Sequence record: OR896822.1
DNA: 64,000 nt
Reading direction: 5' to 3' (one strand)
DNA from: Salmonella phage vB_SenS-3
In this document: in pieces, positions 8,852 to 60,375 of the stretch
How positions within the stretch are numbered: the first letter of the stretch is position 1
Layout of the letters: every line of letters starts with the position of its first letter
The notes under the pieces: model-generated
What the model was told of the DNA's origin: nothing
Databases searched by the model: none
The model's input: only the letters and a program-made list of their open reading frames with translations
Program-made: the position numbers and the translations under genes

Positions 8852-9381
8852 TGATAGCAGCAATCTATGCAACTGGGCCGAATGGGGAGTTCGGCCTCAA
8901 TGGTAAGCTCCCCTGGGGTTCTTTCAAAGAAGAACTAGATATCTTCTATGCTACATTGGATTCTCTGGCACCTGACAATATTATTGTAGGAGCAGGAACT
9001 TGGTTAGCATTCCCTGAGACTCTGCAAAAAAGAATACTAGGAGATTCTGACCTATTTATTTATGCAAATAGACCACTACCGAACTCTATAAGATCAGCTA
9101 CACGCATAAGCAACATTGGATACCGTCTGCCTGATTTTCTCAAGGAAGAGGTAACTGTAGTATTAGGGGGAGCAACTCTGCTTCTTGAAATGTATGTCAA
9201 AAATCATCTAGATATGGCGTATATCTCTACTGTTACTTCAGCCACACCATTATCTGCTGATGTACATCTGCATCATCATATTACTTTAACTAATTCAATG
9301 GCAACTAGAATGGACTATGTGGCAGGACAGAATGCAGATAAAACGCTTTCATTCTTACAAGAATTGGTGATATTTAAATGA
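8851..9381 (+). CDS. dihydrofolate reductase-like protein
   Basis: 176 aa; N-terminal IAAIYATG...LPW resembles DHFR; sits between nrdB and thyA. Confidence 0.65.
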
Positions 9382-10232
9382 AGCAATATATTGAAACTGG
9401 AAAACGTATTCTTGAAGAGGGTGTATGGGTAACGAATCCTAGAACAGGGGTTCGTTGCCTAACCATTATTGATGCAGACTTTACCTTTAACGTAGGAGCA
9501 GGAGAACTGCCGCTAGTAACTACTCGTAAAGCATTTGCTAAACAAGCAATAATGGAAATGATCGGATATCTACGTGGGTACGACTCAGCAGCACAATTCC
9601 GCGCTATTGGTGTTAATACATGGAATGCTAATGCAAATGAAAATATTGCCTGGCTAGGTAATCCATTCCGTAAAGGCGAGGATGATATGGGACGAGTCTA
9701 TGGTGTTCAAGGACGTCATTGGACTAATTCTGATGGTATGGTATTTGATCAGTTAGCCAAAGTCTACCATAATTTGAAAAGAGGGATTGACGATCGTGGA
9801 GAAATTTTAACTTTTTGGAACCCTGGGGAATTTCGTAAAGGATGCCTACGTCCGTGTATGCATACCCATCAATTCTCTATTTTAGGTGATACACTATACC
9901 TAAACTCTTTCCAGAGGTCTAATGATTTCTTGCTGGGCCAAGTATTTAATATGGTGCAATGCTATGCACTTCTAGCTATTATGGCACAGATTACAGGTCT
10001 TAAGCCAGGTATTGCTCGTCAAAAGATTATTAATCTTCATATCTATGAAGATCAGTATAATGTTCTGATGGAGCACAAGCAATTCGATCGTGAACCTTTT
10101 GCACCTCCTACTTTAGAAATCAATCCAAATATTAGAACTTTGGATGATGTATTAACGTGGGTAAGTAAGGATGATTTTACTGTTCGTGGCTATGAACACC
10201 ATCCTGCTATTGCATATCCATTTACGGTGTAA
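9378..10232 (+). CDS. thyA: thymidylate synthase
   Basis: 284 aa; active-site [10 protein letters not shown] matches the ThyA PCH..QF signature. Confidence 0.85.
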
Positions 10233-10235
10233 CAT

Positions 10236-10589
10236 ATGTTAATTATACTATTATTTGTCATATTCTTTCTAAAACATTTTATGGCCGATTATCCACTCCA
10301 AACACCATATATGCTAAGAAAGACGCATAAAATAGGGTGGAAACTTCCATTATTAACCCATTCGCTAGTACATGCTGGATTAACATTTGCAATTCTAATC
10401 CTATTCACATCACCAGGAATGTCTATAGCTTTAGCTATTATGGAATTAATTCTACACTTTATTATAGATTATTGGAAAGCACAACGCTGTAAATACGCTA
10501 TAAGCGATGCTAAGTTTTGGATAGCTTTAGGATTTGATCAGTTACTGCATTATCTGACATACGCCCTAATAATCTTGATTATAATCTAA
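10236..10589 (+). CDS. hypothetical membrane protein
   Basis: 117 aa, several hydrophobic segments. Confidence 0.45.
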   Translation: MLIILLFVIFFLKHFMADYPLQTPYMLRKTHKIGWKLPLLTHSLVHAGLTFAILILFTSPGMSIALAIMELILHFIIDYWKAQRCKYAISDAKFWIALGFDQLLHYLTYALIILIII

Positions 10590-10687
10590 TTCAAATAGCC
10601 CTTCGGGGCTATTATATTTAAATTTCATTTGCTTACTGAGTGAAATTCAAATATAATATACTTCTAATTTGACAGAAGGATTTAATA

Positions 10688-11266
10688 ATGACAGCCATAG
10701 TAGCATTTAAATATAAAGATAAAGTATACTTAGCTGGTGATCGTATGGGTTCTAATGGCTATACGAAACTGCTGGTTAAAAATCCGAAAGTATTCAAAAT
10801 CTCTGATGATTTGTACTTCGGATACACTAGTTCCTTCTACATGGGACAATTACTAGAGCATAGCTTTACTGTACCACCACGTTTAGCAGATATTTCCGAT
10901 GATAAATATTTATATACGGAAATAGTACCTAAATTACGTGATATGTTTAACCAGAAAGATTTTGGCGAAAAGAAAAATGAAAAATATGCTGAACCTAATC
11001 TGGGACAATTTATTATGCTCTACAAAGGAAGAATCTTTATTTTCCAATCTAATGCTTCTATTCTAGAAGTTGAATATGCCGGTGTAGGCTGTGGAGGAGA
11101 AGATGTACTTTCCAGTATTCGTACAGGTTTAGCTATTGCGGATTGTCGAGCCACAGATTTAGATGTAGATGATATATTTGAAATCATTGATCTGGCTTTT
11201 ACGCATTGTGCAGATTATATGTGTGGTGTATCTTCCCAACATGATGTTTTAGTAATTGGAGAATAA
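10688..11266 (+). CDS. Ntn-hydrolase / HslV-like peptidase (putative)
   Basis: N-terminus MTAIVAFKYKDKVYLAGDRMGSNG resembles HslV/proteasome beta subunit with Thr at position 2. Confidence 0.4.
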   Translation: MTAIVAFKYKDKVYLAGDRMGSNGYTKLLVKNPKVFKISDDLYFGYTSSFYMGQLLEHSFTVPPRLADISDDKYLYTEIVPKLRDMFNQKDFGEKKNEKYAEPNLGQFIMLYKGRIFIFQSNASILEVEYAGVGCGGEDVLSSIRTGLAIADCRATDLDVDDIFEIIDLAFTHCADYMCGVSSQHDVLVIGE

Positions 11267-17607: not shown

Positions 17608-18237
17608 TAATAGTGGGGTGCCGAAACCACTTATGTAACAACACTGCCGTCCTAGTATAATAGGTATTATTAGGGCTTCACCGCCTGAAGATGTGGGTTC
17701 GAGTCCCACGGTCGGAAAGAGTTGGATAACTGGTGCTTCTAATGGCGAAGCAATCGCAGGCAGTTGCGCACTGCCAAAACCACGCGGTAGTTGGTTCCAG
17801 GCTAACCAACCACTCTTGAAAAGTATATACTACGGTTTTGCTTGTTCAGGAAGCTTCGCATCGAAAATCGGAGGTGCGATTTTATCAGACCGCGTGGAGG
17901 ACGTCTCTCCGTTAAGTGACGAAAAGTGGGACGATTCAGGTAGAGCTGGATATGGAACACCTATACATATGCGGAGTGCGCACAAAGCATATTGCGGTGG
18001 TACTAAACGAAATTAGGAGTCATGACCTGCACAAGTTTAGTATGTCATAACCGATGTACATTCAGTACAAAAACCACTGAAGCTAAGATAGATAGTCACC
18101 TTGACTTAAACTGGAAGATATTGTCTGACGGAAGGGCTGCAGAGCTTAATCTGAGGGGGCTGACCCTACCTACCGTCGGGTATCTTTAAGAGTTCTTACG
18201 AGAACTCTTAAAGATACCTAAACATTAAGGAATACTG
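17608..18237 (+). ncRNA. candidate structured RNA (GC-rich, tRNA-like T-arm at 5' end, several hairpins)
   Basis: No RBS or promoter-proximal start; GTGGGTTCGAGTCCCAC T-arm at 17693-17709 without matching acceptor stem; local GC rise; many stems. Confidence 0.3.
18179..18218 (+). other. perfect 18-bp stem / 4-nt loop hairpin
   Basis: GGTATCTTTAAGAGTTCT / AGAACTCTTAAAGATACC inverted repeat just upstream of the ORF at 18238. Confidence 0.7.
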
Positions 18238-48419: not shown

Positions 48420-49301
48420 ATGTATAACTTTAAAGATAAACTAAGACAAAATGCTGGTAAAGGAAAAGCTAAAGAGAACAATAATATTCCTAGTGCTAAA
48501 ATATTACCTTTTCCTGAACTAACACAGGAAGAAAAAGATAAACTAGCATTTATGTTCGATGCACTTATAGGATTAAGTGGACGCCTATATTCCACTCTTA
48601 GTATTAATGAGAAACGTCTAGTAGAGATGTTCTGCAAACGTTATCAAGTTACTTCAAAAGGTAACTCTTATAAAGAAGGTGAAAAAGCATTCACAGTCTT
48701 AAAAATCAGTGCGTATGCACATCGTTTCTTAGTTTATGGATTACAGATGGAATACTTCACCCTCCCACCATTTAAATCATTCCATATCTTTGAGGATGAA
48801 CGAATGAATATTGATGATCTTTATGGAGATACGTACAAATATTCAGGAAGCCCATTCCATGATGCATTAAGAAGCTACCCTACTAGTTACCTACCAGTTA
48901 GAGCATCACAAGGCAAAGCTAGCATCTTTGCTGTATACTCAGGATCTAAAGCATCTGATCTAGAAACTTATATATTTAAAGAGCGTAAATCTGCAATTCC
49001 AGATGAAGCATTATATAATAATCCACTTCTTCCAGAAGAACCGGAGAAAATTGATGTAACTCCCCCAACCCCATCCGAATCTCAATATTTAGTCTATGAA
49101 AAACAAGTTAAGTTGTCTCTAGACATTGGGTTGGTTACACCGCTTGCTGCAGCATTCATAAATAAGTATCTAGAAATTCCTGACGAGTTCCATGCACGTT
49201 ATAACACGAATATTCAGATCACAGATGAACTAGTTGCATTAGCAAAAGATACACCTACTGACACTGAGGCGTATCAAAAAGCATACCAAGAGTTACTGTA
49301 A
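48420..49301 (+). CDS. hypothetical protein
   Basis: 293-aa ORF, last + strand early-type gene before repeat region. Confidence 0.5.
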   Translation: MYNFKDKLRQNAGKGKAKENNNIPSAKILPFPELTQEEKDKLAFMFDALIGLSGRLYSTLSINEKRLVEMFCKRYQVTSKGNSYKEGEKAFTVLKISAYAHRFLVYGLQMEYFTLPPFKSFHIFEDERMNIDDLYGDTYKYSGSPFHDALRSYPTSYLPVRASQGKASIFAVYSGSKASDLETYIFKERKSAIPDEALYNNPLLPEEPEKIDVTPPTPSESQYLVYEKQVKLSLDIGLVTPLAAAFINKYLEIPDEFHARYNTNIQITDELVALAKDTPTDTEAYQKAYQELL

Positions 49302-49310
49302 GATCCTGCA

Positions 49311-49340
49311 AGTCTCGGTGCACAATACCTGTACCGAGAC
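49311..49340 (+). terminator. hairpin after last early gene
   Basis: GTCTCGGT...ACCGAGAC 8-bp stem. Confidence 0.45.
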
Positions 49341-49829
49341 TCAAATACAAACTCTCGTTGACAGATAACTAAATGTATGTTATCATAACTCTATGAGTTA
49401 ATAAAATTAACCATTTAGAGTTGCCACACAGAAGGTGTGGTGGTTCAGGAATCTTAAATTACTGACTTGTAGCGTAGGTTACGGAGCGACAGGACAAGTC
49501 AACAGGTAATTTAATAAAGATTACTAGAAACATCACGAGACCTTCTGGCGGGGGCAAAGCTCTATATGAGAACCCTGGGGGATCTTATACTTATATAAAA
49601 ACTAATACTGTTGAATAGATAAATTAACGTTCAAGATGATACACTCGGTTGCCGCTCATCTGCTAGGATGGCACAACACTTTCTTCTAGACTCCTAAGTT
49701 TCTAGGAGAACTCTCGTCAACTCAGGCGGTTTTCATTGTTCCTAGAAACTCTAGCAATAGGCGGTTAATACAGGGCGGTTATAGGGAGGGCGGTTATTTC
49801 TAGGAGTCATTTTTTGAAAACACATTTCT

Positions 49830-50445
49830 GGAGATTGCTATCGGATTTGCACATTATGTTTCTAGAAATTTATGGTCGGATTTGCACAATTGCCTAAGTT
49901 TTTAGGAACATATAATCTCCCGAAAATAGCAGCATTATTTCGGGCCGAAGGCCCATGATTGCCTGAGTTTTTAGAGCCACAGGAATTTTCACTTGTCAAG
50001 CTATTTTGCCCCATTTTGCTAATAAAATTTCGCTTTATCTCCCCCAATCTCAATTCTAGCCAAAACATCCCGCATTATCCCCAAAAACGCAGCAAACCGG
50101 TGCTAAAGCACCATCACCGCTGCTCCTTCCGTAGTTACTCCCAAAATCTCATCGGATTCGCACTTCTCCCCAAACCCACACAATCACACACCCTCCAATC
50201 GAAGTCACAAAAATCTTGTCGGATTCGCACACCTTAACACTTGTCGGTTTTGCACATATTCTAGTAAATCCAGCTGGATTGCATCGCAGTTGCGGATTGC
50301 TAGAGTTTTTAGGAAAATTCATTGTCGGATTCGCACACTATAAAAATATTTGCCATCGGATTTGCACACTACCAAAAATTGTCGGATTCGCACATGCACG
50401 CTGGCACGTAATCCGTGGGGGCAAATGTCGGATTTGCACAAAAGC
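49830..50445. repeat. iteron array: about 9-10 copies of TCGGATT(C/T)GCACA plus TTTCTAGGAG-like and GGCGGTTA repeats
   Basis: Copies near 49843, 49876, 50146, 50220, 50245, 50326, 50353, 50379, 50428; motif resembles a degenerate DnaA box (ATTTGCACA). Confidence 0.8.
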
Positions 50446-50464
50446 GCAGGGCAAATAGAAAATG

Positions 50465-50640
50465 CCCTGCCTGCCGAAATGCGAATGATAATGAGATTGA
50501 TTCGCATTTGAGAAGTTGAATGCGAATGATAATGATTCGCGTTTAGAAAGGGGAATGAGAATGGTTATCCTTTACAGAGTTGAATGCGAATGAGTTGCGT
50601 AATGAGAATGATTCGCATTTAGAAAGGGAAGTGAGAAACA
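50465..50640. repeat. cluster of GAATGCGAATGA / ATTCGCATT inverted and direct repeats
   Basis: At least four TGAATGCGAATGA-like units alternating with ATTCGCATTT/ATTCGCGTTT. Confidence 0.75.
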
Positions 50641-50652
50641 CTATTATTTAAG

Positions 50653-50661
50653 TTATCCACA
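50653..50661 (+). promoter_or_regulatory. consensus DnaA box TTATCCACA
   Basis: Exact 9-mer; TTATCAACA variants follow at 50715-50740. Confidence 0.5.
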
Positions 50662-50742
50662 GGTTTATTAACAGCACGATCTGACTTGACAAAATCCTAG
50701 TGATTTTGAGGCGTTATCAACAGACTTATCAACAGGTTATTC

Positions 50743-50762
50743 TACTGTATATTTATACAGTA
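50743..50762. repeat. 20-bp perfect palindrome TACTGTATATTTATACAGTA (core also at 54516)
   Basis: Self-complementary; CTGTATATTTATACAG core recurs at 54516-54531. Confidence 0.8.
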
Positions 50763-50792
50763 TTACTGCGTAGTGAATAACTCTAATATAGC

Positions 50793-50822
50793 TCTAAAAC
50801 GCTCTGTAACTCATTCTAAGCG
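50793..50822 (+). repeat. 30-bp direct repeat copy A (TCTAAAACGCTCTGTAACTCATTCTAAGCG)
   Basis: 29/30 identical to 54942-54971, same orientation. Confidence 0.8.
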
Positions 50823-50907
50823 ATTTAATTTTGGAGGAGGTATTTTAATAGGGGGAATTTGAGGAAGGCCAGAAAAAGCGGGGCCAGATAGTTGCACCCC
50901 GTTATTA

Positions 50908-51102
50908 TTAGTCTGGTAGTCGATGTGTGATCTTTTCGCTTTCGCCGTAGGAGTCTACCAAATGTTGATAGTAACCATCGTTATCATAAATCACTTTATC
51001 ATAATCGCCACGCTCCACCGCTTGCCGATTTTCCAGCGTATCAGGCACAAAGAAAGTATCAACGGTAACAGTAGTTTTAGTTACAACAATTTTATCACTC
51101 AT
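50908..51102 (-). CDS. hypothetical protein
   Basis: 64-aa ORF, minus-strand block. Confidence 0.3.
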   Translation of the reverse strand: MSDKIVVTKTTVTVDTFFVPDTLENRQAVERGDYDKVIYDNDGYYQHLVDSYGESEKITHRLPD

Positions 51103-51232
51103 AACGCCATCGCTCCTAGAATGAGAATGATTATCAATATCATTGTAAAGCCATTACCAAATCGTAAACGCTGGGAATGTTTCCCAGCGGTATTATTAGA
51201 TTTATGGCTTTGTGTTTTTCGCCACCAGCTAT

Positions 51233-51445
51233 TCACGGTTTTAAATTCTCTATAGTTAATTTTGCGCGAATAGTGATTCCATATAATTCGCCTCCCTTGT
51301 TTCTTACATCAGGTAGCCAGTCCCACAATTCAGGGTATCCGCTTAAAATTCCTAGCGATGCAAGATTAGCAATAAAACCGGCTATAGTAACCGCTTCCAG
51401 TGAAATAGTTACACGATTATTAATAACTAAAGTAAACTTTTTCAT
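51233..51445 (-). CDS. hypothetical protein
   Basis: 70-aa ORF, minus-strand block. Confidence 0.35.
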   Translation of the reverse strand: MKKFTLVINNRVTISLEAVTIAGFIANLASLGILSGYPELWDWLPDVRNKGGELYGITIRAKLTIENLKP

Positions 51446-51786
51446 TGCGCCACCTTTCGAAACGCTGTTTCGATACTTTCAGCGGTTGATTGAATATACG
51501 CGCCTTTCATAATCAGGCGCTCTGTACACACTTTGCGGAAAATGTCAATAAATTCATTTTCATTTTCCGCTATTAACGCTTCCCCCATAACCTGAACGTC
51601 ACAAGACCCAAAAGTTAAAAATTGAAATGCTAGTTCACGGGCGACAACGGCAGAAATTTTATAATGTGCTTTGCCCTCATAGATATTAACCACGCCTTTA
51701 TAAACTGGTGAAAGCTGATTTAAATAGTTTGCTAATAATGCCGGACGGCAATTAGTAATAAAGCGATTGCCCTCATAAATTACCAT
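51442..51786 (-). CDS. hypothetical protein
   Basis: 114-aa ORF, ATGA-type overlap with downstream ORF. Confidence 0.4.
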   Translation of the reverse strand: MVIYEGNRFITNCRPALLANYLNQLSPVYKGVVNIYEGKAHYKISAVVARELAFQFLTFGSCDVQVMGEALIAENENEFIDIFRKVCTERLIMKGAYIQSTAESIETAFRKVAQ

Positions 51787-51909
51787 CTGCCAACCTCCCT
51801 AGCAAATAGCCAAAACAAATCGAATAAACGCCTAACAGTGCAGGATCACTTTTAAAGTAGGTAGCAATAAAGCCACCAGCAGCACCGAGCAAAATAGAAA
51901 ATAAAGTTT

Positions 51910-52122
51910 TCATAATACCCCACGAAACGCAGCGTAAAAGGTGGCAAAGTGTTTAACCGTTTCGGCTACCAAATTGCCGCGCTTGTCAAATTTCTTTTCT
52001 GTAACACGGAAAGCGTTTTTGTTGCGTGCTACATATTCGATTTTACAATCTGGACGCTCGAACGTGTTAACATCCACCAGCTTAAAACCTTTGGAACGGG
52101 CAAGGGAAACATTCTTTAACAT
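51910..52122 (-). CDS. hypothetical protein
   Basis: 70-aa ORF. Confidence 0.35.
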   Translation of the reverse strand: MLKNVSLARSKGFKLVDVNTFERPDCKIEYVARNKNAFRVTEKKFDKRGNLVAETVKHFATFYAAFRGVL

Positions 52123-52124
52123 TT

Positions 52125-52274
52125 TTATTCCCCTTTACCAGTCATACAGCCTAACAAGTAAGAAAACCCCGCGATACCTGCTCCGATAATAACCACGTGA
52201 ACGCCGAAAGCTATTACAAACAGCGATAAAATAGCGCCCAAGATACTAGCCAGAATAGATCGAAAAATAACCAT
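52125..52274 (-). CDS. hypothetical small membrane protein
   Basis: 49-codon ORF with AGGAGG RBS; hydrophobic; below ORF-track cutoff. Confidence 0.3.
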   Translation of the reverse strand: MVIFRSILASILGAILSLFVIAFGVHVVIIGAGIAGFSYLLGCMTGKGE

Positions 52275-52381
52275 TTTAACGCCTCCTAGAAATTAGGGAA
52301 AATTTTCAGTCCACCGTTTCGGTGTAAAGGCATTATAACAAAAAAGGCCGCCGATTAGGGCGACCTTTACAAAACTTTACA

Positions 52382-52876
52382 TTAGACTATTTCTAGTGCT
52401 TCCACGCCGAAACAGCGTTTTAATTCTTTCTGTAAAACGGCATATTCATCCCAACGGGAATTATCAGGAATATAAACAAGCTGTTTTAGTCGATTTGCAT
52501 ATAATAACGCCTTGTTACCAATTATTTCCGCGCCACCGTGTTTAATAATTAGTTTCATAACGGTATTAATAGGATCGCCGCCATTTACATAAGTACCGGA
52601 CTTACTCAATTGATAATGATAAAGACTCGCATATACATTATCATTTTCAATCCATTCCCCTGTTTCTTCATCTTCTTCCCCATCGCTACCGAAACGAGAA
52701 GCATTATCATATGCGTGTTCGTTTGCGAAAGCGTCCAGATCACAGCCAGCGGGAACAAAATGTTCCTCCGTCCAGCCTTCCCCACAATAGCCAGTGTGAC
52801 AATCAACTAAAACGATCATATCGTGTTTAGCTTCATTCACACTTTCTAGAGAAAAGCCATATTTTTCTTCTGACAT
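52382..52876 (-). CDS. hypothetical acidic protein
   Basis: 164 aa with Asp/Glu-rich stretch SDGEEDEETGEWIEND. Confidence 0.45.
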   Translation of the reverse strand: MSEEKYGFSLESVNEAKHDMIVLVDCHTGYCGEGWTEEHFVPAGCDLDAFANEHAYDNASRFGSDGEEDEETGEWIENDNVYASLYHYQLSKSGTYVNGGDPINTVMKLIIKHGGAEIIGNKALLYANRLKQLVYIPDNSRWDEYAVLQKELKRCFGVEALEIV

Positions 52877-52889
52877 AACTAGACTCCTA

Positions 52890-53198
52890 TTAATTAGCAG
52901 GGAAATAAAGAGAATTTGCTACACTGTAAAATCCTTTATTTAAGAAAATTACGTCATCACGGACTATTTCATCCATTCCATAATCCAGCAAAGTTTCGTC
53001 TACAAAAATACATAGCCAGCCATAACCACGATCAAAGAAAGCATGATAATTATTAGCGCTTTCTACATGTTCCCATAAAAAGGGACGGCCTTGTTTTTCC
53101 CATATAGGAATATTGCTTTGATCGTCCGAATAATTAACATGGGGGCTATTCGGCATTTTTTCGGCTAATTGCGTCAACATGATTTGATTCAGTTGCAT
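52890..53198 (-). CDS. hypothetical protein
   Basis: 102-aa ORF. Confidence 0.45.
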   Translation of the reverse strand: MQLNQIMLTQLAEKMPNSPHVNYSDDQSNIPIWEKQGRPFLWEHVESANNYHAFFDRGYGWLCIFVDETLLDYGMDEIVRDDVIFLNKGFYSVANSLYFPAN

Positions 53199-53264
53199 AA
53201 TAAGTAGTCTCCTAACAATTAACAGGGAAATAGTAAAGCGGGAAATAATCCCCGCTAGTAATTA

Positions 53265-54266
53265 TTACTCTGTTTCGGCGCTTTGGGTAAAGGTAGAAAT
53301 GTCAATGCCTTTTACCATTTCATCGATCATTTCAGCAATATTGAAACTCTGTACCATTTCCAGCATTGCCGCTTCCATTGCCGCGCCTGCTACCGCTTTC
53401 GCTTTCGCATTAGTCGGGGCGTACTGGTCAACCGCTACGCTTAACAGGTTAGCGATCACTACGCGACCGATCGGCGTATCGATATAACCTTTAATCATAA
53501 ACGGCGCTTTTTTCGCCGCTACTTTTGTGATTTGAGTCAGTGCAATTTTACCCGCTTCCAATTTAGCAGCGTTAACAACGGCGGATTTATTAGCGGCAAC
53601 GATAGAAGATACTTTAGACATAATATTTCCTTTATTTTCAGTAGTTTGCGCATTTGCGCTTGAAGTTTGAGATTGTACAGCCTGTTTTGTTACATTGTCA
53701 AGCGATTTTAATGTAAATCCAGCGTTTGCAACGTTTGATTCATTCCCATACTCTAAATAATCGTTAGGAATCAACATGTTACCGCTAGCGCGTTCAAAAC
53801 ACAATACGCCAGTTGTTTCGATTGCGTCACTATCCGCACCTTTATAACTGGATGATAATTCACGCCAGATACTATTTAATAACGATCCGACACTATCCAG
53901 TCTGATATTATTTACTTTTGTTGCTGTTACCTGCTCTTTTTCTTGCACGTTATATAATCGCGCAATGTAACCACTATGAGACTCACTATAACCAACAATG
54001 ATAAAATCAATATCAGTTCCCCGACTATTACGGAAAATGTGATAATCACGGTTGAAAATTACTAGCGCCCTTGTCTGGTCTAGTAATAGCGTGAAATCAT
54101 CGACTGAATAATGAGTATCATTATTATCTAAAATTTCATCGTGAATCTTTTCAACCATTGCCGCCGTATGTTGTACGCTTGCCACACTACTACCATCTAG
54201 CAGGTTGCGCAAACTACCCTTAATAATAGTGGCGTTTGCTGGTACTGCAATTCTTACAGTAGACAT
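53265..54266 (-). CDS. hypothetical protein
   Basis: 333-aa ORF, first gene of minus-strand block, Ala/Lys-rich C-terminal half. Confidence 0.5.
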   Translation of the reverse strand: MSTVRIAVPANATIIKGSLRNLLDGSSVASVQHTAAMVEKIHDEILDNNDTHYSVDDFTLLLDQTRALVIFNRDYHIFRNSRGTDIDFIIVGYSESHSGYIARLYNVQEKEQVTATKVNNIRLDSVGSLLNSIWRELSSSYKGADSDAIETTGVLCFERASGNMLIPNDYLEYGNESNVANAGFTLKSLDNVTKQAVQSQTSSANAQTTENKGNIMSKVSSIVAANKSAVVNAAKLEAGKIALTQITKVAAKKAPFMIKGYIDTPIGRVVIANLLSVAVDQYAPTNAKAKAVAGAAMEAAMLEMVQSFNIAEMIDEMVKGIDISTFTQSAETE

Positions 54267-54515
54267 TTCTTTGTCTCCCTCGTTAATCGGTGAGTGAATG
54301 ATATAGATAATTGTTCGCTAGGGGCAAGAAAAAAGAAAAGGTTTTTTATTCCTTGCCTACTGCCCGTTTTTATGATAATCGCGCGTTTTCTATTTCTAGC
54401 TCTCTGTAAGCGTACACAAGGCTTTATTATAATAAGGGTAGCAGTGAGAAAACGCCGTGTAGCGCGTTCTAGGCCGCTTAAATTTGATTGCGGTTGTTAC
54501 TGCTACCATTCTACC

Positions 54516-54531
54516 CTGTATATTTATACAG
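54516..54531. repeat. palindrome core CTGTATATTTATACAG (second copy)
   Basis: Identical core to 50745-50760. Confidence 0.8.
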
Positions 54532-54553
54532 TAGGATAACCTGTATATAAGTC

Positions 54554-54611
54554 TGTGGATAAGTCACCAAAACGTCGCCTATTGCGTCAAGTTATTTTGT
54601 GCTGTGGATAA
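54554..54611 (-). promoter_or_regulatory. two DnaA boxes in minus orientation (TGTGGATAA at 54554 and 54603)
   Basis: Reverse complements of TTATCCACA; a third AGTGGATAA at 54888. Confidence 0.5.
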
Positions 54612-54941
54612 CTTTGTGCATAACCTAAATGATAGTGGTTCTCACTTAGCCCGATAGTTTCTCATAGTTATTATTTCTCATTAATTTATGTGTATATTAT
54701 ATATTATGAAATAGTTAGTTGGCTAATAGATTTTTAGGGTATTAATAGTCTGCTAACTGTTTCGGCTGTTACAATCCACCAGCGTGATTATCGTCCTAGC
54801 GATTATTAGTCTGCTAATGCTCTGATGCACGTCCAGACTTATTTGTCAATGAAAAATAACAGCAGAAAATACTTTTTTGAAAAATCAAGTGGATAACTCA
54901 TTAAATTTCATTTTTGCTTTTTGTATAAGTTATTAACAGGG

Positions 54942-54971
54942 TCTAAAACGCTCTGTAACGCATTCTAAGCG
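54942..54971 (+). repeat. 30-bp direct repeat copy B (TCTAAAACGCTCTGTAACGCATTCTAAGCG)
   Basis: 29/30 identical to 50793-50822. Confidence 0.8.
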
Positions 54972-55316
54972 CCTCAAAGGAAAAGATAGGCAATCATAAG
55001 GGGTACACCGAGAAAACCTCACCACGAGGATTTTAGATTTTGTCAAGTACCCTAGAGCAGATATAAATGAAAAAATTACTTGCTAAAATGGTTGTTTTGG
55101 TGTTATTCGCGCGCCCGTTTCATTAAATTTAATGCGCCGCTGGACGTTTGCGAGTAGTGGTTTTCTTTACGTTTCTTTACAAAAATACGCTTGCGCCCTT
55201 CTCGGTATTCTCCTATTATTTATCACGTAGGGCGGCAATGACGAACTACACGGCGGGGATAACAGCGATTGACAGTCTGTTTGACCTTTCAAAACCCTGC
55301 CATGCTCTTTAAAAAT

Positions 55317-55342
55317 TAGGGAACATCTTAAAGCCTATCGGC
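55317..55342. repeat. 26-bp inverted repeat, left arm
   Basis: TAGGGAACATCTTAAAGCCTATCGGC; partner at 55593-55618 (25/26 complementary). Confidence 0.75.
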
Positions 55343-55374
55343 GGTAAACTTAGATATTATAAGGAATCGACGAT

Positions 55375-55584
55375 ATGAAACAAACGCTTTTGATCACTGG
55401 CAAGCCTATCAAGTCGCTTGATAGCAGAACAAAAAATTTGTTGACAGTAGCGCAACGATCTGTAAAATACAGATTCAAGCAATACAAGAAAGGCAAGCAA
55501 CAAGGGCTGGAAATGGTGTGGCGTAATATAATGATTGATTTATATAACTCCCATCAAATCGAAAAAAGTTTAAAAAACGATTGA
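55375..55584 (+). CDS. hypothetical small basic protein enclosed by 26-bp inverted repeats
   Basis: 69-aa ORF, GGAATCGACGAT then ATG; flanked by IR arms. Confidence 0.3.
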   Translation: MKQTLLITGKPIKSLDSRTKNLLTVAQRSVKYRFKQYKKGKQQGLEMVWRNIMIDLYNSHQIEKSLKND

Positions 55585-55592
55585 CACGCTAG

Positions 55593-55618
55593 CCGATAGG
55601 TTTTAAGATGTTCCCTAG
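55593..55618. repeat. 26-bp inverted repeat, right arm
   Basis: GCCGATAGGTTTTAAGATGTTCCCTA. Confidence 0.75.
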
Positions 55619-55815
55619 TTTTTAAATAGTGATAACTTGATAAAATTTGACGGTCGGCACTTACCATAATGTGCCTCGCCCCCTAACTGGGATATAGCGG
55701 CCCGCGCGGAGTTCTTTAAATTTATTATATTGGCGAGCGGATTATAATCTAATAGCGTTTCAAAGTATCGAGGCGCTATTGTGGAATAATCCCACAATAA
55801 ACCGGAGTATTAAAA

Positions 55816-56067
55816 ATGCAAAACGTTATCACCGCACCGAAAGTAGGTCAATCCGTTTTTATTCCTTTCGTTACTAAAACGGATGAATTAACTGGAAAAG
55901 CTGAACGTATTAAAGGTGCGGCGCTTGATCCCTTTGATAAAATTGAAGCGGTATACGCGGAAACGGAACGCAGTAACAACGGCAAGCCAATTTATAACGT
56001 TCGCGTTAAATCTGGCGACGTTGTAAAAATCATTCAGAAAGATGATAAATGGCAAGCTATTAGCTAA
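55816..56067 (+). CDS. hypothetical protein
   Basis: 83-aa ORF with GGAG RBS. Confidence 0.4.
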   Translation: MQNVITAPKVGQSVFIPFVTKTDELTGKAERIKGAALDPFDKIEAVYAETERSNNGKPIYNVRVKSGDVVKIIQKDDKWQAIS

Positions 56068-56166
56068 TTAGTGTTACTTTTATATTCCCCTGAAATATGG
56101 GGAATATATGGATTAACATTAGTTAATCATAATCCCTTAATTAATAATTGAATGGAGTATTAAATT

Positions 56167-56583
56167 ATGTCTAACGTTAAAACCGAAAAAACCGCAAAAT
56201 TCGCTTGGAACGAAGAAAACACTGAAAAAGCTGTTTCTATGTATTCTGAAATGGTCGCTAAAAGCGGAATTGAATTTGCTAACAGTGACGGCCTGAAAGA
56301 AATTGCCGCCGCCGTTGGTGCTGCTAGTCCGGTGTCTGTACGTTCTAAACTGACAAGCGCAAAAGCCTATCAGAAAAGCGATAAACCTCGCAAAGTTGGC
56401 GGCGGTAGCTCAATTCGTAAAGCTCACTATGTGCGTGTTATTGCAAAACATGCCATCGACGCTGGCGTTATTAAAGACGCTGATGACTTGGCAAGCCTTG
56501 AAAGTGCTAAACTGGAAACACTGGACGCCGTAGCGCAATTATTAGGCGTAGCGGAGGAAGTAAAACAGGCCGCAGGTGAATAA
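56167..56583 (+). CDS. hypothetical protein
   Basis: 138-aa ORF, Ala-rich; hairpin AGCGGGG AATATT CCCCGCT follows. Confidence 0.45.
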   Translation: MSNVKTEKTAKFAWNEENTEKAVSMYSEMVAKSGIEFANSDGLKEIAAAVGAASPVSVRSKLTSAKAYQKSDKPRKVGGGSSIRKAHYVRVIAKHAIDAGVIKDADDLASLESAKLETLDAVAQLLGVAEEVKQAAGE

Positions 56584-56633
56584 ATTTTAATTAGCGGGGA
56601 ATATTCCCCGCTAACCCTTAAAGGAGAATAATC

Positions 56634-56861
56634 TTGATCTTTTATCCTAGCGAAGCGTTTATTTTAGGTTTATTTATTATTGCCGCTATATTTATATTTA
56701 ATTACGGCAAATATATAATTTCTATTATCGGCATTAATTCAGCTTATGCCGCTGATATGTTTAAACGTCAAGCTAATAAACAAAAATATCTGGCGATTAT
56801 ATTTTTAACGCTGGCTATTAGTTGCGGTTTTAGTTCTAGTCTTATGCCAATTCTAGAATAA
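56634..56861 (+). CDS. hypothetical membrane protein
   Basis: TTG start after AGGAG RBS; two TM helices. Confidence 0.3.
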   Translation: MIFYPSEAFILGLFIIAAIFIFNYGKYIISIIGINSAYAADMFKRQANKQKYLAIIFLTLAISCGFSSSLMPILE

Positions 56862-56969
56862 TATTGCAAATTATAACGCCTTTTAAATTGTCCTCACTTC
56901 AGGCAAGGCGTTATATTTGGCAATATTGCCAGTATTAATATTTATCCCTTTATAGGAGTTGATTTAGTT

Positions 56970-58634
56970 ATGAATATTTCCGCAGAAAAACAAGCTCAAA
57001 TTTTGAAAATGGCCGCTGATTTCAATTTCTACGGTAAGCGTTTACGCGCTACTAAGCTGGAAGTTTGCGACGATATTTCAAAAGCTGTTTATGATACGCC
57101 GAAACATTCAACCGCAATTTGTGACTGGCTGGAAGCAAACAAGCCAGCGAAACCGAAAGCGGCAAAAGCTGAAAAGGCGATTAAAAATGATGATCGCCCC
57201 GAGGCGGCGGGAATTGTTTCTAGCACCGTTGAGCAATGGGAAGTTAAATCCGGTCGCCGTTTTATTCTAACGTCGATTCAGAATAATACTTTCCCGCATA
57301 AAAACTTTTTAGCAAGTCTGGAAAAATTCGCTGAATATTGCGGCGCTGAATTACTTGTTAGCAAATTCATTTACAACAAAAACGGATTTCAGAACGGGGA
57401 AGGGGCAAACGGTATTAAATACGATCCCGCATTTGATAAATATGTTTGTGATAAAAACGTATTTTTAAATAACCGCCGCTTTGCCTTCATGGCTGAAATT
57501 AACGTTTTACCAACGGCAGATTATCCGCTTTCAGGATTCGCAGAAACCGCCACGGCTTTAAATATCGAAGGTCTGGCAATTGGTCACGCAAAAATTACCG
57601 CTGAAAGTGTTCCCGCGCTTAAAGGTGAAGTAGTGCGCCGTATGTATTCAACCGGAACGGCTACGCTTAAAAACTACATTCAGCAGAAAGCAGGACAAAA
57701 GGCCGAGGCTTTACATAACTACGGCGCTTTGCTGGTAGAATTTGACGACGGCGGAGAATTTTTCGTGCGCCAGCTTGAAACAATGGACGAAAGCGGAATG
57801 TTCTATGATCTGAATATTTGCGCCACTCCTAGCGGTTGCAAAGAAATTACCGGACACATTTTAGGCTTACAATATGGCGATATTCACGCCGAAAAATTAG
57901 ATGATGAATGCGCCGTCGCTTCATGGGCTAGTGAAAATTCATTGCTTGATATTCTTAAACCGAAATATCAGTTTATTCATGATGTGCATGATTTTACATC
58001 GCGTAACCATCACAACCGCGCTAGTGGTGTATTCCTTGCTAAACAGTACGCCGCAGGACGTGATAAAGTTATTGATGATCTCATTGATACCGGTCGCGTG
58101 TTGGAATCTATGGAACGTGAATTTAGTCAAACAATCATTGTGGAATCCAACCATGATTTAGCTCTTTCACGCTGGCTTGATGATCGTAACGCAAACATTA
58201 AGGACGATCCCGCAAACGCCGAGCTATATCACAGCCTAAACGCTGCGATTTACGCCGCAATTGCAAAACAAGATGATACCTTTAACGTATTGGATTACGC
58301 GCTTAGAAACGTTGCAGGTTGCGAATTTAACGCTATTTTCCTGACTACTGACCAGTCATTTAAAATCGCTGGCATTGAATGTGGCGTACATGGTCACAAC
58401 GGCATTAATGGCAGTCGGGGCAATCCTAAACAGTTTAAAAAGTTGGGACGCCTTAACACTGGTCACACTCACACGGCTAGCATATACGGCGGCGTTTATA
58501 CCGCTGGCGTGGCGGGGTCGCTTGATATGGGCTATAACGTGGGCGCGTCAAGCTGGACGCAAACGCATTTAATTACCTATGCAAACGGGCAACGTACTTT
58601 GATTGATTTCAAAAACGGTAAATTCTTTGCATAA
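56970..58634 (+). CDS. A1: pre-early A1-like protein (metallophosphoesterase domain)
   Basis: 554 aa; GDIHAE, HDVHD, GHNG, GHTH metallophosphatase motifs in C-terminal half; size matches T5 A1 as recalled. Confidence 0.65.
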   Translation: MNISAEKQAQILKMAADFNFYGKRLRATKLEVCDDISKAVYDTPKHSTAICDWLEANKPAKPKAAKAEKAIKNDDRPEAAGIVSSTVEQWEVKSGRRFILTSIQNNTFPHKNFLASLEKFAEYCGAELLVSKFIYNKNGFQNGEGANGIKYDPAFDKYVCDKNVFLNNRRFAFMAEINVLPTADYPLSGFAETATALNIEGLAIGHAKITAESVPALKGEVVRRMYSTGTATLKNYIQQKAGQKAEALHNYGALLVEFDDGGEFFVRQLETMDESGMFYDLNICATPSGCKEITGHILGLQYGDIHAEKLDDECAVASWASENSLLDILKPKYQFIHDVHDFTSRNHHNRASGVFLAKQYAAGRDKVIDDLIDTGRVLESMEREFSQTIIVESNHDLALSRWLDDRNANIKDDPANAELYHSLNAAIYAAIAKQDDTFNVLDYALRNVAGCEFNAIFLTTDQSFKIAGIECGVHGHNGINGSRGNPKQFKKLGRLNTGHTHTASIYGGVYTAGVAGSLDMGYNVGASSWTQTHLITYANGQRTLIDFKNGKFFA

Positions 58635-58686
58635 TTAAATTTAATCGGCGGTTGAAATATACCGCCATTAATAAAAGGTTTATTAA

Positions 58687-58965
58687 ATGGCTAGTAAAAT
58701 TAATATATCTATCCCTGATAGCAATTGTTTAGAAGATATTGCATGGTCTGAAATGTCTTTTGATAGTTGCGTTTATTTAGTTACCCGTGGAATGTACGCG
58801 GGAATGTACGCCGTATGGGATAGTAATATTGGCGAAAATATGATCTTTTTCGGAAAAGATTCTATTCAGGTAATGACAGGCGATTACCTTAATCAAGAAA
58901 GGAAAGACGGCGACGAAACATATTTTCGTAAAACTGATTTATCTTTAAATGTATTTTTTCAATAA
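58687..58965 (+). CDS. hypothetical protein
   Basis: 92-aa ORF. Confidence 0.4.
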   Translation: MASKINISIPDSNCLEDIAWSEMSFDSCVYLVTRGMYAGMYAVWDSNIGENMIFFGKDSIQVMTGDYLNQERKDGDETYFRKTDLSLNVFFQ

Positions 58966-58997
58966 ATCCCGTAATTAAATAATCTGGAGTCATAAAC

Positions 58998-59390
58998 ATG
59001 AAAAACCAAAACATTCCTTTTGATCGTGCTACTTCTTCCATCGTTCTAGTTTATTCTAATGGCGAACGTTATCACGTCGAAGCGGGGCAAGTTAATTTCG
59101 ATTTGCTGAATTATAACGACGCTTTGCAGGTTACTACCTTTGCTTATGATACCGGCAAAGTGGCAAGCCATACGAAAGCAAAAGGCGTTTACGCTGATAC
59201 TTTGACAGTGCAAACAATCATTATTGATGCGCTTAAATCCGGTCTAGCGTTTGCGGTTGTTAAGCCGTGTCCGGTCTGCAATCCCGAAGCTAGCGCAATG
59301 GTTTATACTTGCGCGGGTATCCGTTCTAGCGTACATGGTGAAGATCTTTCCTTTATCGGTGACGCGCTAGCGTATGGCCTCACTAACTAA
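58998..59390 (+). CDS. hypothetical protein (possible A2-like pre-early protein)
   Basis: 130 aa adjacent to A1-like gene; assignment by position and size only. Confidence 0.35.
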   Translation: MKNQNIPFDRATSSIVLVYSNGERYHVEAGQVNFDLLNYNDALQVTTFAYDTGKVASHTKAKGVYADTLTVQTIIIDALKSGLAFAVVKPCPVCNPEASAMVYTCAGIRSSVHGEDLSFIGDALAYGLTN

Positions 59391-59477
59391 TAGTTAATTG
59401 AACATTGCCAGCTAATCTAATATAATTAGCTGGCAAGATTGAATTAACCTAAATCCCTTAAATGGAGAATGTAACAA

Positions 59478-60212
59478 ATGAATCAAGTCAACATGAATAT
59501 TACCCGCACTTTCTCGCATATTTCCCGCGTTATGATTTGGGATTTAGACGGGACAATCATTAATTCATTCCATCGTGTAGCGCCTTGCTTTGATGATAAC
59601 GGGAATTTAGATTTAAATAAGTATTCCCGCGAAGCCTGCAAACATGAATTAATTATGCAGGATTCCTTATTACCATTGGTTGAATATATGCGCCAATGTA
59701 TGAATGATCCCAATACCTTAAACCTTATTTGTACCGCTCGCTTAATGGGTAAATCTGATTATTATTTCTTGCGTAAACAAAGTCTAAGAGGACGCGGAAA
59801 TAGTAATATTCGCGTATTTTCCCGCGATACTTTGCATAAATACTTTGAAGCGGATAAGGTTAGCGAAATATACCACAGCAAAGATGCTGTATATAAATCT
59901 TATTACTTTGAACTGTTTAAACAGCTATATCCTAACGCTGATTTTACGATGATTGATGATCATAAAGGTGTATTATCGGCGGCGGCAAGTGCTGGATTTA
60001 AAACGCTGGACGCTCAAGCCGTTAATGATATCCTATCAATCGGCGTAACATTGATCGGTGAAACCTTTATTGATGAATCACTTGATGATGATAACGATTA
60101 TCAATTCCTAGCCGAACGTTTAAAAATGTGTTGGGAAGGTATGACCGAGGAAGAACGAGCGGAATATAGTACCACACCGCAACAATTCATTGATAAATTA
60201 AAAGTCGCGTAA
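59478..60212 (+). CDS. dmp: 5'-deoxyribonucleotidase (HAD-like), dmp-like
   Basis: 244 aa; N-terminal WDLDGT HAD motif I; size matches T5 dmp as recalled. Confidence 0.65.
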   Translation: MNQVNMNITRTFSHISRVMIWDLDGTIINSFHRVAPCFDDNGNLDLNKYSREACKHELIMQDSLLPLVEYMRQCMNDPNTLNLICTARLMGKSDYYFLRKQSLRGRGNSNIRVFSRDTLHKYFEADKVSEIYHSKDAVYKSYYFELFKQLYPNADFTMIDDHKGVLSAAASAGFKTLDAQAVNDILSIGVTLIGETFIDESLDDDNDYQFLAERLKMCWEGMTEEERAEYSTTPQQFIDKLKVA

Positions 60213-60375
60213 TAATTAAAAATAAAATAGTCACACTGTGTTATCATCACATAGTGTGACTATTAGCTTGCTAAGTACCGGGGCGGTAATGAGACTCATT
60301 CTCATCTAGGGAACCTCTGGGCACACCTTCATGTGTAATCTTATGAAATTTCGAGAATTGGTAATTAGCGCTAAC

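What the first reader, a model, noticed from the sequence alone, without database searches (positions are those of the whole stretch)
49302..50907. 1.6-kb non-coding region packed with iterons, DnaA-box-like motifs and inverted repeats
No ORF with an RBS is present, yet the region holds about ten copies of TCGGATT(C/T)GCACA, about six TTTCTAGGAG-like units, three GGCGGTTA, a GAATGCGAATGA/ATTCGCATT inverted-repeat cluster, a consensus DnaA box (TTATCCACA at 50653) and a 20-bp perfect palindrome. It lies exactly between the last early gene and the pre-early-type block. In T5-type phages the first-step-transfer injection stop signal at the inner edge of the terminal repeat is reported to be repeat- and DnaA-box-rich, so this is a candidate injection-stop / terminal-repeat boundary, or alternatively a replication origin.
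Basis: partly seen in the sequence, partly recalled or inferred. Interest (0 to 1): 0.75.

Follow-up and report, generated by a model that had tools for sequence, protein, structure and literature searches.

The report
T5-type injection-stop / terminal-repeat boundary region
This 1.6-kb gene-free stretch is the counterpart, in a Salmonella T5-like phage, of the long-described repeat-rich "injection stop signal" region of phage T5 that straddles the inner end of the terminal repeat, so the finding is real but already known.

Summary
Window 49302-50907 has no conserved ORF. It holds nine same-strand TCGGATTYGCACA units, three GGCGGTTA, an AATGCGAATGA repeat cluster, four DnaA-type boxes in two pairs, and a 9+2+9 palindrome.

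The window is a T5-like Epseptimavirus, 99.9% identical to Salmonella phage RA40. This gap is collinear with T5's untranslated region between its last pre-early gene (T5.017) and first early gene (T5.018). T5 records annotate that region as the injection stop signal.

By homology to five other phage records, the inner end of the terminal repeat lies inside the region at 49973|49974. The repeat runs from there to 60322. The injection-stop / repeat-boundary reading is therefore supported. The replication-origin alternative is not.

How the stop works is still unresolved in papers up to 2026. Binding of host DnaA to the boxes is an untested proposal.

Three side results of mine:
- The DnaA-box pair plus palindrome is invariant out to Vibrio and Pectobacterium phages, while the other repeats drift.
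- The 13-mer array flanks the genome end in every relative checked down to Pectobacterium.
- An unannotated promoter followed by a covarying three-hairpin RNA candidate lies at 49358-49521.

Novelty: already known. Interest: low.

The parts
49311..49341 (.). 12-nt-arm hairpin just after the stop codon of the first early gene (T5.018 homologue). Probably the 3' end structure of that operon.
   Evidence: Inverted repeat I11. Nearly identical in T5 and vB_SenS-3. No T-run follows, so a terminator role is inferred only.
49358..49386 (+). Near-consensus sigma-70 promoter, TTGACA-17-TATCAT with a TG extended -10. It fires towards the terminal repeat.
   Evidence: 11 of 12 consensus matches plus the TG. 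Both hexamers and the TG are kept in all eight aligned relatives, apart from one -10 base in the Klebsiella phage at about 70% identity (TATTAT for TATCAT). Not annotated in three T5 records.
49387..49521 (+). Candidate structured non-coding RNA of three hairpins. The apical sequence TAGCGNAGNNTACGGAGCG is invariant.
   Evidence: Minimum free energy z-score -5.9. 99.1% of cells paired. 10 pairs changed on both sides, against 2.4 +/- 1.1 in shuffles (0 of 500) and 0-3 in slid controls. G-U wobbles favour the + strand. No Rfam match. Found in roughly 100 phage records, against 542 that match the whole region.
49690..49910 (.). Repeat cluster on the unique side of the boundary: TTTCTAGGA-type inverted repeats, GGCGGTTA x3 (49760-49796), and two TCGGATTTGCACA units (49841, 49876; T5 direct repeat D copies 8 and 7).
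49973..49974 (.). Inner end of the terminal repeat, which is the physical right end of the virion DNA (TTTTTA|GAGCCACAGG). The repeat runs from 49974 to 60322.
   Evidence: Four sources map here: the T5 left terminal repeat end, the PhageTerm repeat end of Sepoy, the phiR201 repeat end, and the actual last bases of the vB_SenS-3 record. In BF23 the PhageTerm repeat end lies at the same distance from the DnaA module. This is inferred by homology; no reads were available.
49974..50150 (+). C-rich tract just inside the genome end, with the T5 direct repeat A-like units (50049-50087).
   Evidence: GC skew of -0.30 to -0.35. Mapping of T5 features.
50152..50440 (+). Seven same-strand TGTCGGATTYGCACA units. 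Six correspond to T5 direct repeat D copies 1-6; the copy at 50152 is extra.
50443..50450 (+). Exact match to the T5 major-nick consensus R/GCGCRGG (A|GCGCAGG). It is orthologous to the T5 7.9% nick.
   Evidence: The T5 nick at 9748/9749 maps to 50444/50443. The consensus is taken from PMC3517423. The PhageTerm 'repeat end' of phage Seabear falls exactly here, which suggests a pile-up of read ends at a real nick. The nick itself cannot be tested here.
50446..50470 (.). Hairpin GCAGGGCA...TGCCCTGC (T5 palindrome J).
50478..50627 (.). AATGCGAATGA / ATTCGCATT direct and inverted repeat cluster (T5 direct repeat C copies 1-4; Davison's 66-bp DRE repeats). The calculated T5 first-step shear point (9618) maps to 50502.
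   Evidence: Davison 2020.
50630..50762 (+). T5 inverted repeat C' - spacer - inverted repeat D' module. It holds two pairs of DnaA-type boxes (50653 and 50665; 50714 and 50726), all on the + strand, and the 9+2+9 palindrome (50743-50762).
   Evidence: The roughly 50-nt core is invariant in nine sequences from Escherichia, Salmonella, Yersinia, Citrobacter, Klebsiella, Pectobacterium and Vibrio phages. It is present in 529 phage records.
50872..50903 (-). GGGG...CCCC hairpin followed by a T-run: the terminator of the pre-early operon that ends at 50908.
   Evidence: The T5 terminator at 9275-9296 maps to 50901-50874. The sequence was read.
54516..54647 (-). Distant inverted partner of the DnaA-box module (T5 'Repeat Region 2'), with three consensus DnaA boxes.
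   Evidence: 132-nt inverted repeat, 76% complementary. Boxes at 54554, 54603 and 54615.
60322..60323 (.). The other end of the terminal repeat, which is the genome's left terminus (...CCTCTGGGC|ACACC). It is flanked by single copies of GGCGGTAA, ATGAGA..TCTCAT and TCTAGGGAAC.
   Evidence: Position 1 of vB_SenS-3 and of Sepoy map here. The window runs collinear through the junction between unique DNA and the right terminal repeat.

Best explanation
The region is the orthologue of phage T5's 'Repeat Region 3', the untranslated junction between the terminal repeat (first-step-transfer, pre-early DNA) and the unique early region.

It is a composite. Reading rightwards on the window + strand:
- the 3' hairpin of the early operon;
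- a strong promoter and a structured RNA candidate;
- repeats on the unique side of the boundary;
- the genome's physical right end, which is the terminal-repeat boundary, at 49973|49974;
- a C-rich tract;
- seven 13-mer iterons;
- the 7.9%-type nick site;
- the AATGCGAATGA repeat cluster, where the T5 shear point maps;
- a 132-bp module with two pairs of DnaA-type boxes and a palindrome, which has an inverted partner 3.8 kb deeper in the repeat;
- the terminator of the pre-early operon.

Mechanism known from T5, carried over here by homology: on infection the left repeat enters first, and DNA transfer pauses when about 8% is inside. That point is within or just past the DnaA-box / AATGCGAATGA cluster. 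Pre-early genes are then expressed, and proteins A1 and A2 release the pause.

Mechanism inferred: the invariant DnaA-box module is the part that contacts a host factor, most plausibly DnaA, to hold the DNA. The faster-drifting iterons (the 13-mer, GGCGGTTA, AATGAGAAT) flank the genome end, and two of these classes (GGCGGTWA, AATGAGAAT) recur at the other end. They are more likely sites for phage-encoded proteins that make or handle the genome ends, or that restart transfer.
For: Identity of the region:
- It is 99.9% identical to Salmonella phage RA40, and 542 T5-like records share it.
- It is collinear with T5 9158-10935 at 87% mean column identity.
- T5 records annotate the injection stop signal, the nick and the repeat end there.
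- AY587007 names most of the motif classes, all but GGCGGTTA and the TTTCTAGGAG-type units, and the named features map one to one onto the window.

Boundary:
- Four independent sources map to 49974.
- The BF23 spacing agrees.
- The other end maps to 60322.

Stop site:
- The T5 shear point maps to 50502.
- Literature.

Host-factor inference:
- The box pair plus palindrome is invariant in nine sequences spanning seven host genera.
- The Vibrio phage has replaced the neighbouring iterons with different ones.

Phage-protein inference:
- The 13-mer array (7-11 copies, one strand) brackets the repeat end in T5, Cit2, DT57C, phiR201, K15, Klebsiella PWKp9S and Pectobacterium My1.
- GGCGGTWA and AATGAGAAT-type motifs recur within 50 nt of the left terminus, including in My1.
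Against: - Nothing here tests function. Two-step transfer has not been shown for this phage.
- The position of the stop in T5 is known only from shear mapping, to about 7.9%.
- DnaA binding is Davison's untested hypothesis. A June 2026 paper still calls the mechanism poorly understood.
- Consensus DnaA boxes are not enriched in the window as a whole: 10 found against 8.3 expected.
- Invariance of the module could equally reflect a conserved phage protein.
- One T5 record (AY692264) and the Seabear record place the repeat end at the nick rather than 470 bp beyond it.
- GGCGGTWA enrichment is modest; 4 of 100 shuffles reach six matches.
Confidence: 0.85

Rival explanations
1. The iterons are mainly a packaging / end-generation signal. 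The small terminase subunit, or another phage protein, would bind the 13-mer array and the GGCGGTTA and AATGAGAAT motifs on the replicating concatemer. It would direct the cut at 49973|49974 and its counterpart at 60322|60323, and start packaging from the right end. The injection pause would then be a secondary function or a separate one. This is compatible with the best explanation for the DnaA module.
For: The 13-mer array brackets the repeat end in seven phages from four genera and two subfamilies. Two motif classes of the region recur beside the left terminus. The left end enters the cell first, which implies the right end is packaged first (general knowledge of tailed-phage packaging). 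Sequence beside the right terminus is conserved out to My1.
Against: No 13-mer copy lies near the left terminus. Spacing between copies is irregular: 25 to 276 bp between successive units. I found no T5 terminase recognition site described in the literature. Termini in public records are not all exact.
Confidence: 0.3
2. The region is a DnaA-dependent, iteron-type replication origin.
For: It has four DnaA-type boxes, a nine-copy iteron array, and a strong promoter with a structured transcript pointing into the region. On the surface this resembles primer-RNA or iteron origins.
Against: There is no AT-rich unwinding element; GC is 0.37-0.44. No initiator gene lies adjacent. T5 origins were mapped near the genome centre, and the replication genes are not expressed while only the first-step DNA is in the cell (Davison 2020). 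The boxes are duplicated in inverted order 3.8 kb away, which no known origin requires.
Confidence: 0.05
3. The pause is caused by the site-specific nick at 50443|50444, or by DNA secondary structure from the many palindromes, rather than by any bound protein.
For: The 7.9% nick and the 7.9% shear point coincide within about 60 bp. The nick motif is conserved in every member of the T5 subfamily (Markadamsvirinae) and the Klebsiella phage that I checked.
Against: My1 and the Vibrio phage lack the nick motif but keep the rest of the architecture. From my own knowledge of the older T5 literature, not checked here, interruption-deficient T5 mutants are viable and still transfer in two steps.
Confidence: 0.07

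Closest known systems
Phage T5 injection stop signal / 'Repeat Region 3' (Heusterspreute et al. 1987; Wang et al. 2005, GenBank AY587007 9194-10409; Davison 2020, bioRxiv 10.1101/866236)
   Same: Orthologous position and sequence, 87% mean column identity. The order of elements is the same: terminator, DnaA-box module, AATGCGAATGA cluster, nick, 13-mer array, repeat end, two more 13-mers. There are nine 13-mers, the inverted partner lies deeper in the repeat, and the gap between the two inverted repeats is 51 nt in both phages.
   Different: Minor differences only. There is one extra 13-mer at 50152, and T5's ninth copy is missing because it sits in a 39-bp T5 insertion. All four boxes are intact, whereas T5 has TTATCCCCA at one of them. 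The AATGCGAATGA cluster carries indels, and there are three GGCGGTTA copies against two in T5.
Chromosomal DnaA-box clusters (E. coli oriC, datA)
   Same: TTATCCACA-type 9-mers are clustered and closely spaced in one orientation.
   Different: There is no unwinding element and no evidence of replication initiation. The boxes sit in tandem pairs 3 bp apart, the pairs start 61 bp apart, and the whole module is duplicated as a distant inverted repeat. DnaA binding has not been tested.
Concatemer-junction / packaging-signal regions of phages with exact terminal repeats (T7 pac sites, lambda cosB) - compared from my own knowledge
   Same: Arrays of short repeats flank a sequence-specific genome end, and a promoter points at the cut site.
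   Different: No terminase binding data exist for T5-type phages. The repeat is 10 kb rather than 160 bp. This is a resemblance only.

Membership tests
T5-type injection-stop region (Repeat Region 3) | Untranslated gap between the last pre-early ORF and the first early ORF, straddling the inner end of the long terminal repeat | tested here: met
   Flanking genes align to T5.017-side and T5.018. The repeat end maps to 49974, inside the gap.
T5-type injection-stop region (Repeat Region 3) | Sequence homology to the T5 region annotated as the injection stop signal | tested here: met
   87% mean column identity over about 1.7 kb in the three-way alignment. The T5 misc_feature 9140-10149 covers window positions from about 50044 to 50907.
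T5-type injection-stop region (Repeat Region 3) | A roughly 131-bp inverted-repeat module carrying two pairs of DnaA / DnaA-like boxes 3 bp apart, with an inverted partner copy deeper in the repeat | tested here: met
   Module at 50629-50760 and partner at 54516-54647, 132 nt, 76% complementary. Boxes at 50653/50665 and 50714/50726. The partner carries three consensus boxes.
T5-type injection-stop region (Repeat Region 3) | Adjacent AATGCGAATGA-type repeats and a series of about nine TGTCGGATTYGCACA direct repeats | tested here: met
T5-type injection-stop region (Repeat Region 3) | Major single-strand interruption (7.9% nick) at R/GCGCRGG next to the first 13-mer | tested here: inconclusive
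   The motif is exact and orthologous at 50443. Seabear's PhageTerm boundary falls on it. The nick itself is a property of virion DNA and cannot be seen in the sequence.
T5-type injection-stop region (Repeat Region 3) | DNA transfer actually pauses here until A1/A2 are made | not testable with these tools
   This needs infection experiments. A1, A2 and dmp homologues are annotated in the repeat of the collinear relative vB_SenS-3, and the window has the matching ORFs.
DnaA-dependent iteron replication origin | AT-rich unwinding element next to the DnaA boxes | tested here: not met
   GC is 0.37-0.44 across the region, no lower than the flanks.
DnaA-dependent iteron replication origin | Initiator gene adjacent to its iterons, and initiation mapped at the locus | tested here: not met
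   Only small pre-early ORFs and the T5.018 homologue flank the region. The literature maps T5 origins near the genome centre. Initiation itself cannot be tested here.
Rfam RNA families (for the 49387-49521 element) | Match to any curated covariance model | tested here: not met
   The only hit was a chance-level miRNA match elsewhere in the stretch, E = 0.49.

The most novel reading that the evidence does not exclude
Two readings go beyond the literature I could find and are not excluded.

(1) The repeat families are not all 'stop signal'. Only the deeply invariant DnaA-box / palindrome module would be the host-contact element. The 13-mer array, GGCGGTTA and AATGAGAAT motifs bracket the right end, and the latter two classes recur at the left end. 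They would be the recognition system for making the 10-kb terminal repeat ends, possibly sharing specificity with the enzyme that makes the virion nicks.

(2) A previously unannotated structured RNA of about 135-200 nt is made from an invariant strong promoter at 49358 and is transcribed towards the genome end.
Probability: 0.3. Interest if true: 0.5.

Novelty: already known. Interest (0 to 1): 0.2.

Why it matters
As a finding it mainly confirms that this window comes from a T5-type phage assembled with a single copy of its terminal repeat. It also lets the repeat be delimited at 49974-60322, which matters for correct annotation and for counting restriction sites exposed during first-step transfer.

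The wider question, how a phage stops and restarts its own DNA injection, is a 50-year-old open problem. The comparative results here sharpen which bases to mutate. The 50-nt box-plus-palindrome core is invariant, whereas the iterons drift and bracket the genome end. No new kind of element is revealed.

Tried and rejected
- **Rfam scan of 49000-51200:** nothing above chance.
- **tRNA scan:** all 28 tRNAs lie at 17.6-31.6 kb, and none is in the region.
- **Small ORFs of 53-92 aa:** rejected as genes. For each, most of ten relatives show a lost start codon, a frameshift or an internal stop. Several public records nonetheless annotate 'hypothetical proteins' there.
- **Replication origin:** rejected for lack of an unwinding element and against the literature.
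- **Long-range outer stem of the RNA (RNAalifold prediction):** rejected. It breaks in the Klebsiella homologue, whereas a local hairpin, CCACAC/GTGTGG changing to CACCAC/GTGGTG, covaries.
- **IMG/VR scan with the RNA's apical motif:** it gave 17 loci but no new sequence variants. About half (8 of 17) were chance hits in unrelated contigs.
- **Genome termini as an imperfect terminal inverted repeat resembling the nick consensus** (5'-GCCCAGAGG at the left, 5'-GAGCCACAGG at the right, 5'-GCGCAGG at nicks): left as a weak observation. T5, My1 and phiR201 termini do not line up exactly.
- **Helical phasing of the 13-mers:** spacings of 25 to 276 bp show none.
- **Literature searches for a T5 terminase recognition site or a T5 non-coding RNA:** nothing found.
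Full report
**What the window is.** The 1.6-kb stretch is 99.9% identical to Salmonella phage RA40. It is shared, at 70-97% identity, by more than 500 T5-like phage records of the family Demerecviridae. The window also carries a 28-gene tRNA block typical of these phages. Its orientation is the reverse of the T5 reference records.

**Checking the observation.**
- There are nine TCGGATTYGCACA units, seven exact and two with one mismatch. All are on the + strand, between 49841 and 50440. No shuffle of the window reaches the observed count.
- There are three GGCGGTTA copies.
- TTTCTAGGA-type units occur in both orientations.
- An AATGCGAATGA / ATTCGCATT cluster lies at 50470-50650.
- TTATCCACA is at 50653.
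- The '20-bp palindrome' at 50743-50762 is really two 9-nt arms around TT.
- Mechanical ORFs of 53-92 aa exist. For each, most of ten relatives show a lost start codon, a frameshift or an internal stop, so none is kept across the set and the region is non-coding.

**What it is.** A three-way alignment of the region with T5 (AY543070 9100-10990) and Salmonella phage vB_SenS-3 is collinear from end to end, with 87% mean column identity. In T5 this is the untranslated gap between T5.017 and T5.018. AY543070 and AY692264 annotate 9140-10149 (or 9140-10144) as 'injection stop signal', 9748/9749 as a major single-chain interruption, and 10219 as the end of the left terminal repeat.

The third T5 record, AY587007, annotates the fine structure: palindromes C-J, inverted repeats D' and C', direct repeats A, B, C and D (nine D copies), and 'major single-stranded nick 1, 7.9%'. 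Mapping those features through a pairwise alignment puts each on a window element:
- Direct repeat D is the TGTCGGATTYGCACA unit.
- Direct repeat C is the AATGCGAATGA cluster.
- Direct repeat B is the pair of DnaA boxes.

GGCGGTTA and the TTTCTAGGAG-type units have no named T5 counterpart, although T5 carries both motifs.

Davison's 2020 comparison of 25 T5-like phages calls this 'Repeat Region 3'. It describes the same architecture, including eight DnaA-type boxes in four pairs. So the finding is a known, named element.

**The terminal-repeat boundary.** I mapped repeat ends from six records onto the window.
- T5, Sepoy (PhageTerm), phiR201 and the actual last bases of the vB_SenS-3 record all fall at 49973|49974 (TTTTTA|GAGCCACAGG).
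- Kenya-K15 is 19 bp away.
- In BF23, whose repeat was sized by PhageTerm, the repeat end lies 733 bp beyond the DnaA module. The corresponding distance here is 732 bp.
- Seabear's PhageTerm 'repeat end' and the AY692264 annotation both fall on the nick site instead (50443|50444). I read these as read-end pile-ups, or an annotation choice, at a real nick. AY543070 annotates the right-repeat copy of the nick 470 bp before the genome end, so the repeat must extend past it.

The other repeat end maps to 60322|60323. The window runs straight through the junction between the late-gene end and the repeat. It therefore holds one collapsed repeat copy, 49974-60322, or 10,349 bp.

**The nick.** The published consensus for T5 major nicks is R/GCGCRGG (PMC3517423). 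Window 50443 reads A|GCGCAGG on the + strand, which is the strand nicked in T5. The two other + strand matches in the window (37211, 20057) are orthologous to T5's annotated nicks 2 and 3. They lie at 19.0% and 33.0% of a 121,960-bp genome, against 18.3% and 32.6% in T5.

**How it works: what is shown and what is inferred.** Shown in T5 and BF23, and taken here from the literature: the left repeat enters first, transfer halts at about 7.9-8%, and proteins A1 and A2 are needed to resume. T5's calculated shear point, 9618, maps to window 50502 in the AATGCGAATGA cluster. That is just outside the DnaA module.

Why the DNA stops is not shown anywhere. Davison proposed that membrane-bound host DnaA binds the boxes. 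Papers from 2023 to June 2026 still describe the mechanism as unknown.

**My comparative results bearing on the mechanism.**

First, a roughly 50-nt core (GTTATCNACAGACTTATNNACAGGTTATCCTACTGTATAWWTATACAG) is invariant in nine sequences. These are the window, T5, the Yersinia phage phiR201, the Salmonella phage Kenya-K15, and Citrobacter, Klebsiella, Pectobacterium and Vibrio phages, plus the window's own inverted partner. The core is present in 529 records. In the Vibrio phage the boxes are even closer to consensus, and the two pairs keep their 61-62 bp start-to-start spacing. Its neighbouring iterons, however, are different sequences. That pattern fits a site read by a factor conserved across these hosts, such as DnaA. 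It does not prove it.

Second, the 13-mer array (7-11 copies, always one strand) brackets the repeat end in every relative down to Pectobacterium My1. My1 belongs to a different subfamily and has three copies outside and six inside its annotated repeat.

Third, the 50 nt inside the left terminus carry single copies of GGCGGTAA, ATGAGA..TCTCAT and TCTAGGGAAC. The block AATGAGAATRAGTCTCATTACCGCCC is shared by the Salmonella-type phages and My1, and T5 keeps TAACCGCC.

These last two points suggest that the drifting iterons serve phage proteins that make or handle the genome ends. That is a rival, or complementary, role to 'stop signal'.

**Replication origin.** This is not supported. There is no AT-rich unwinding element and no initiator gene nearby. 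The literature places T5 origins centrally and notes that the replication genes are absent from the first-step DNA.

At 49358-49386 there is a TTGACA-17-TATCAT promoter with a TG extended -10. It scores 11 of 12 and is the best in the stretch. Both hexamers and the TG are kept in all eight aligned relatives; the Klebsiella phage, which is only about 70% identical, differs by one -10 base (TATTAT).

The transcript it would make folds far better than shuffles, with z = -5.9. On 12 distinct homologues, a three-hairpin structure spanning 49387-49521 has 99.1% of cells paired. Ten pairs changed on both sides, against 2.4 +/- 1.1 in shuffles (0 of 500) and 0-3 in slid controls. G-U pairs favour the + strand.

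It has no Rfam match and is not annotated in the three T5 records. It occurs in roughly 100 phage records, against 542 that match the whole region. Only three sequence types exist, so the covariation rests on few independent events. Expression is untested.

**Verdict.** The element is already known and named, so interest is low. The open part is the mechanism. The comparative split between an invariant DnaA-box core and end-bracketing iterons, together with the RNA candidate, is the only material here that goes beyond the literature I could read.

Noticed in passing
window 49358-49521 (+): A near-consensus promoter, conserved in every relative aligned, is followed by a three-hairpin element with compensatory base changes. 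It has no Rfam match and is not annotated in the T5 records. It is a candidate non-coding RNA transcribed towards the genome end, present in roughly 100 phage records against 542 that match the whole region.
   Followed up: partly
window 50443, 37211, 20057 (+): The three + strand matches to the T5 nick consensus R/GCGCRGG are orthologous to T5's annotated major nicks 1-3. They sit at 8.1, 19.0 and 33.0% of the predicted genome.
   Followed up: partly
window 60270-60323: The genome's left terminus is predicted at 60322|60323. The last 50 nt of the repeat carry GGCGGTAA, ATGAGA..TCTCAT and TCTAGGGAAC, which echo the motifs of the 1.6-kb region. The block is conserved in Pectobacterium phage My1.
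   Followed up: partly
window 49974-60322: The window holds a single copy of the 10,349-bp terminal repeat, flanked by late-gene DNA on one side and early-gene DNA on the other. The source assembly is therefore collapsed or circularly permuted, not the virion form.
   Followed up: yes
L005 (Salmonella phage Seabear MK728824) 1468; AY692264 9749: Two public records place the terminal-repeat end exactly at the 7.9% nick rather than about 470 bp further on. This is probably because read ends pile up at the nick. It is a likely recurring annotation error in T5-like genomes.
   Followed up: partly
L013 (Vibrio phage VCPH AP014889) 100-570: This distant relative keeps the two DnaA-box pairs and the palindrome. 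It replaces the AATGCGAATGA cluster with about ten CAACAGTTGYC-type units, and the 13-mers with ATTTCGCACT-type units.
   Followed up: no
window 49974-50215 (+): There is a strongly C-rich strand bias (GC skew about -0.3) in the first 240 bp inside the right genome end. It is unexplained.
   Followed up: no
window 17645-17718 (+): ARAGORN calls one of the 28 phage tRNAs as tRNA-SeC with anticodon TCA. It may be a suppressor-like or miscalled tRNA.
   Followed up: no
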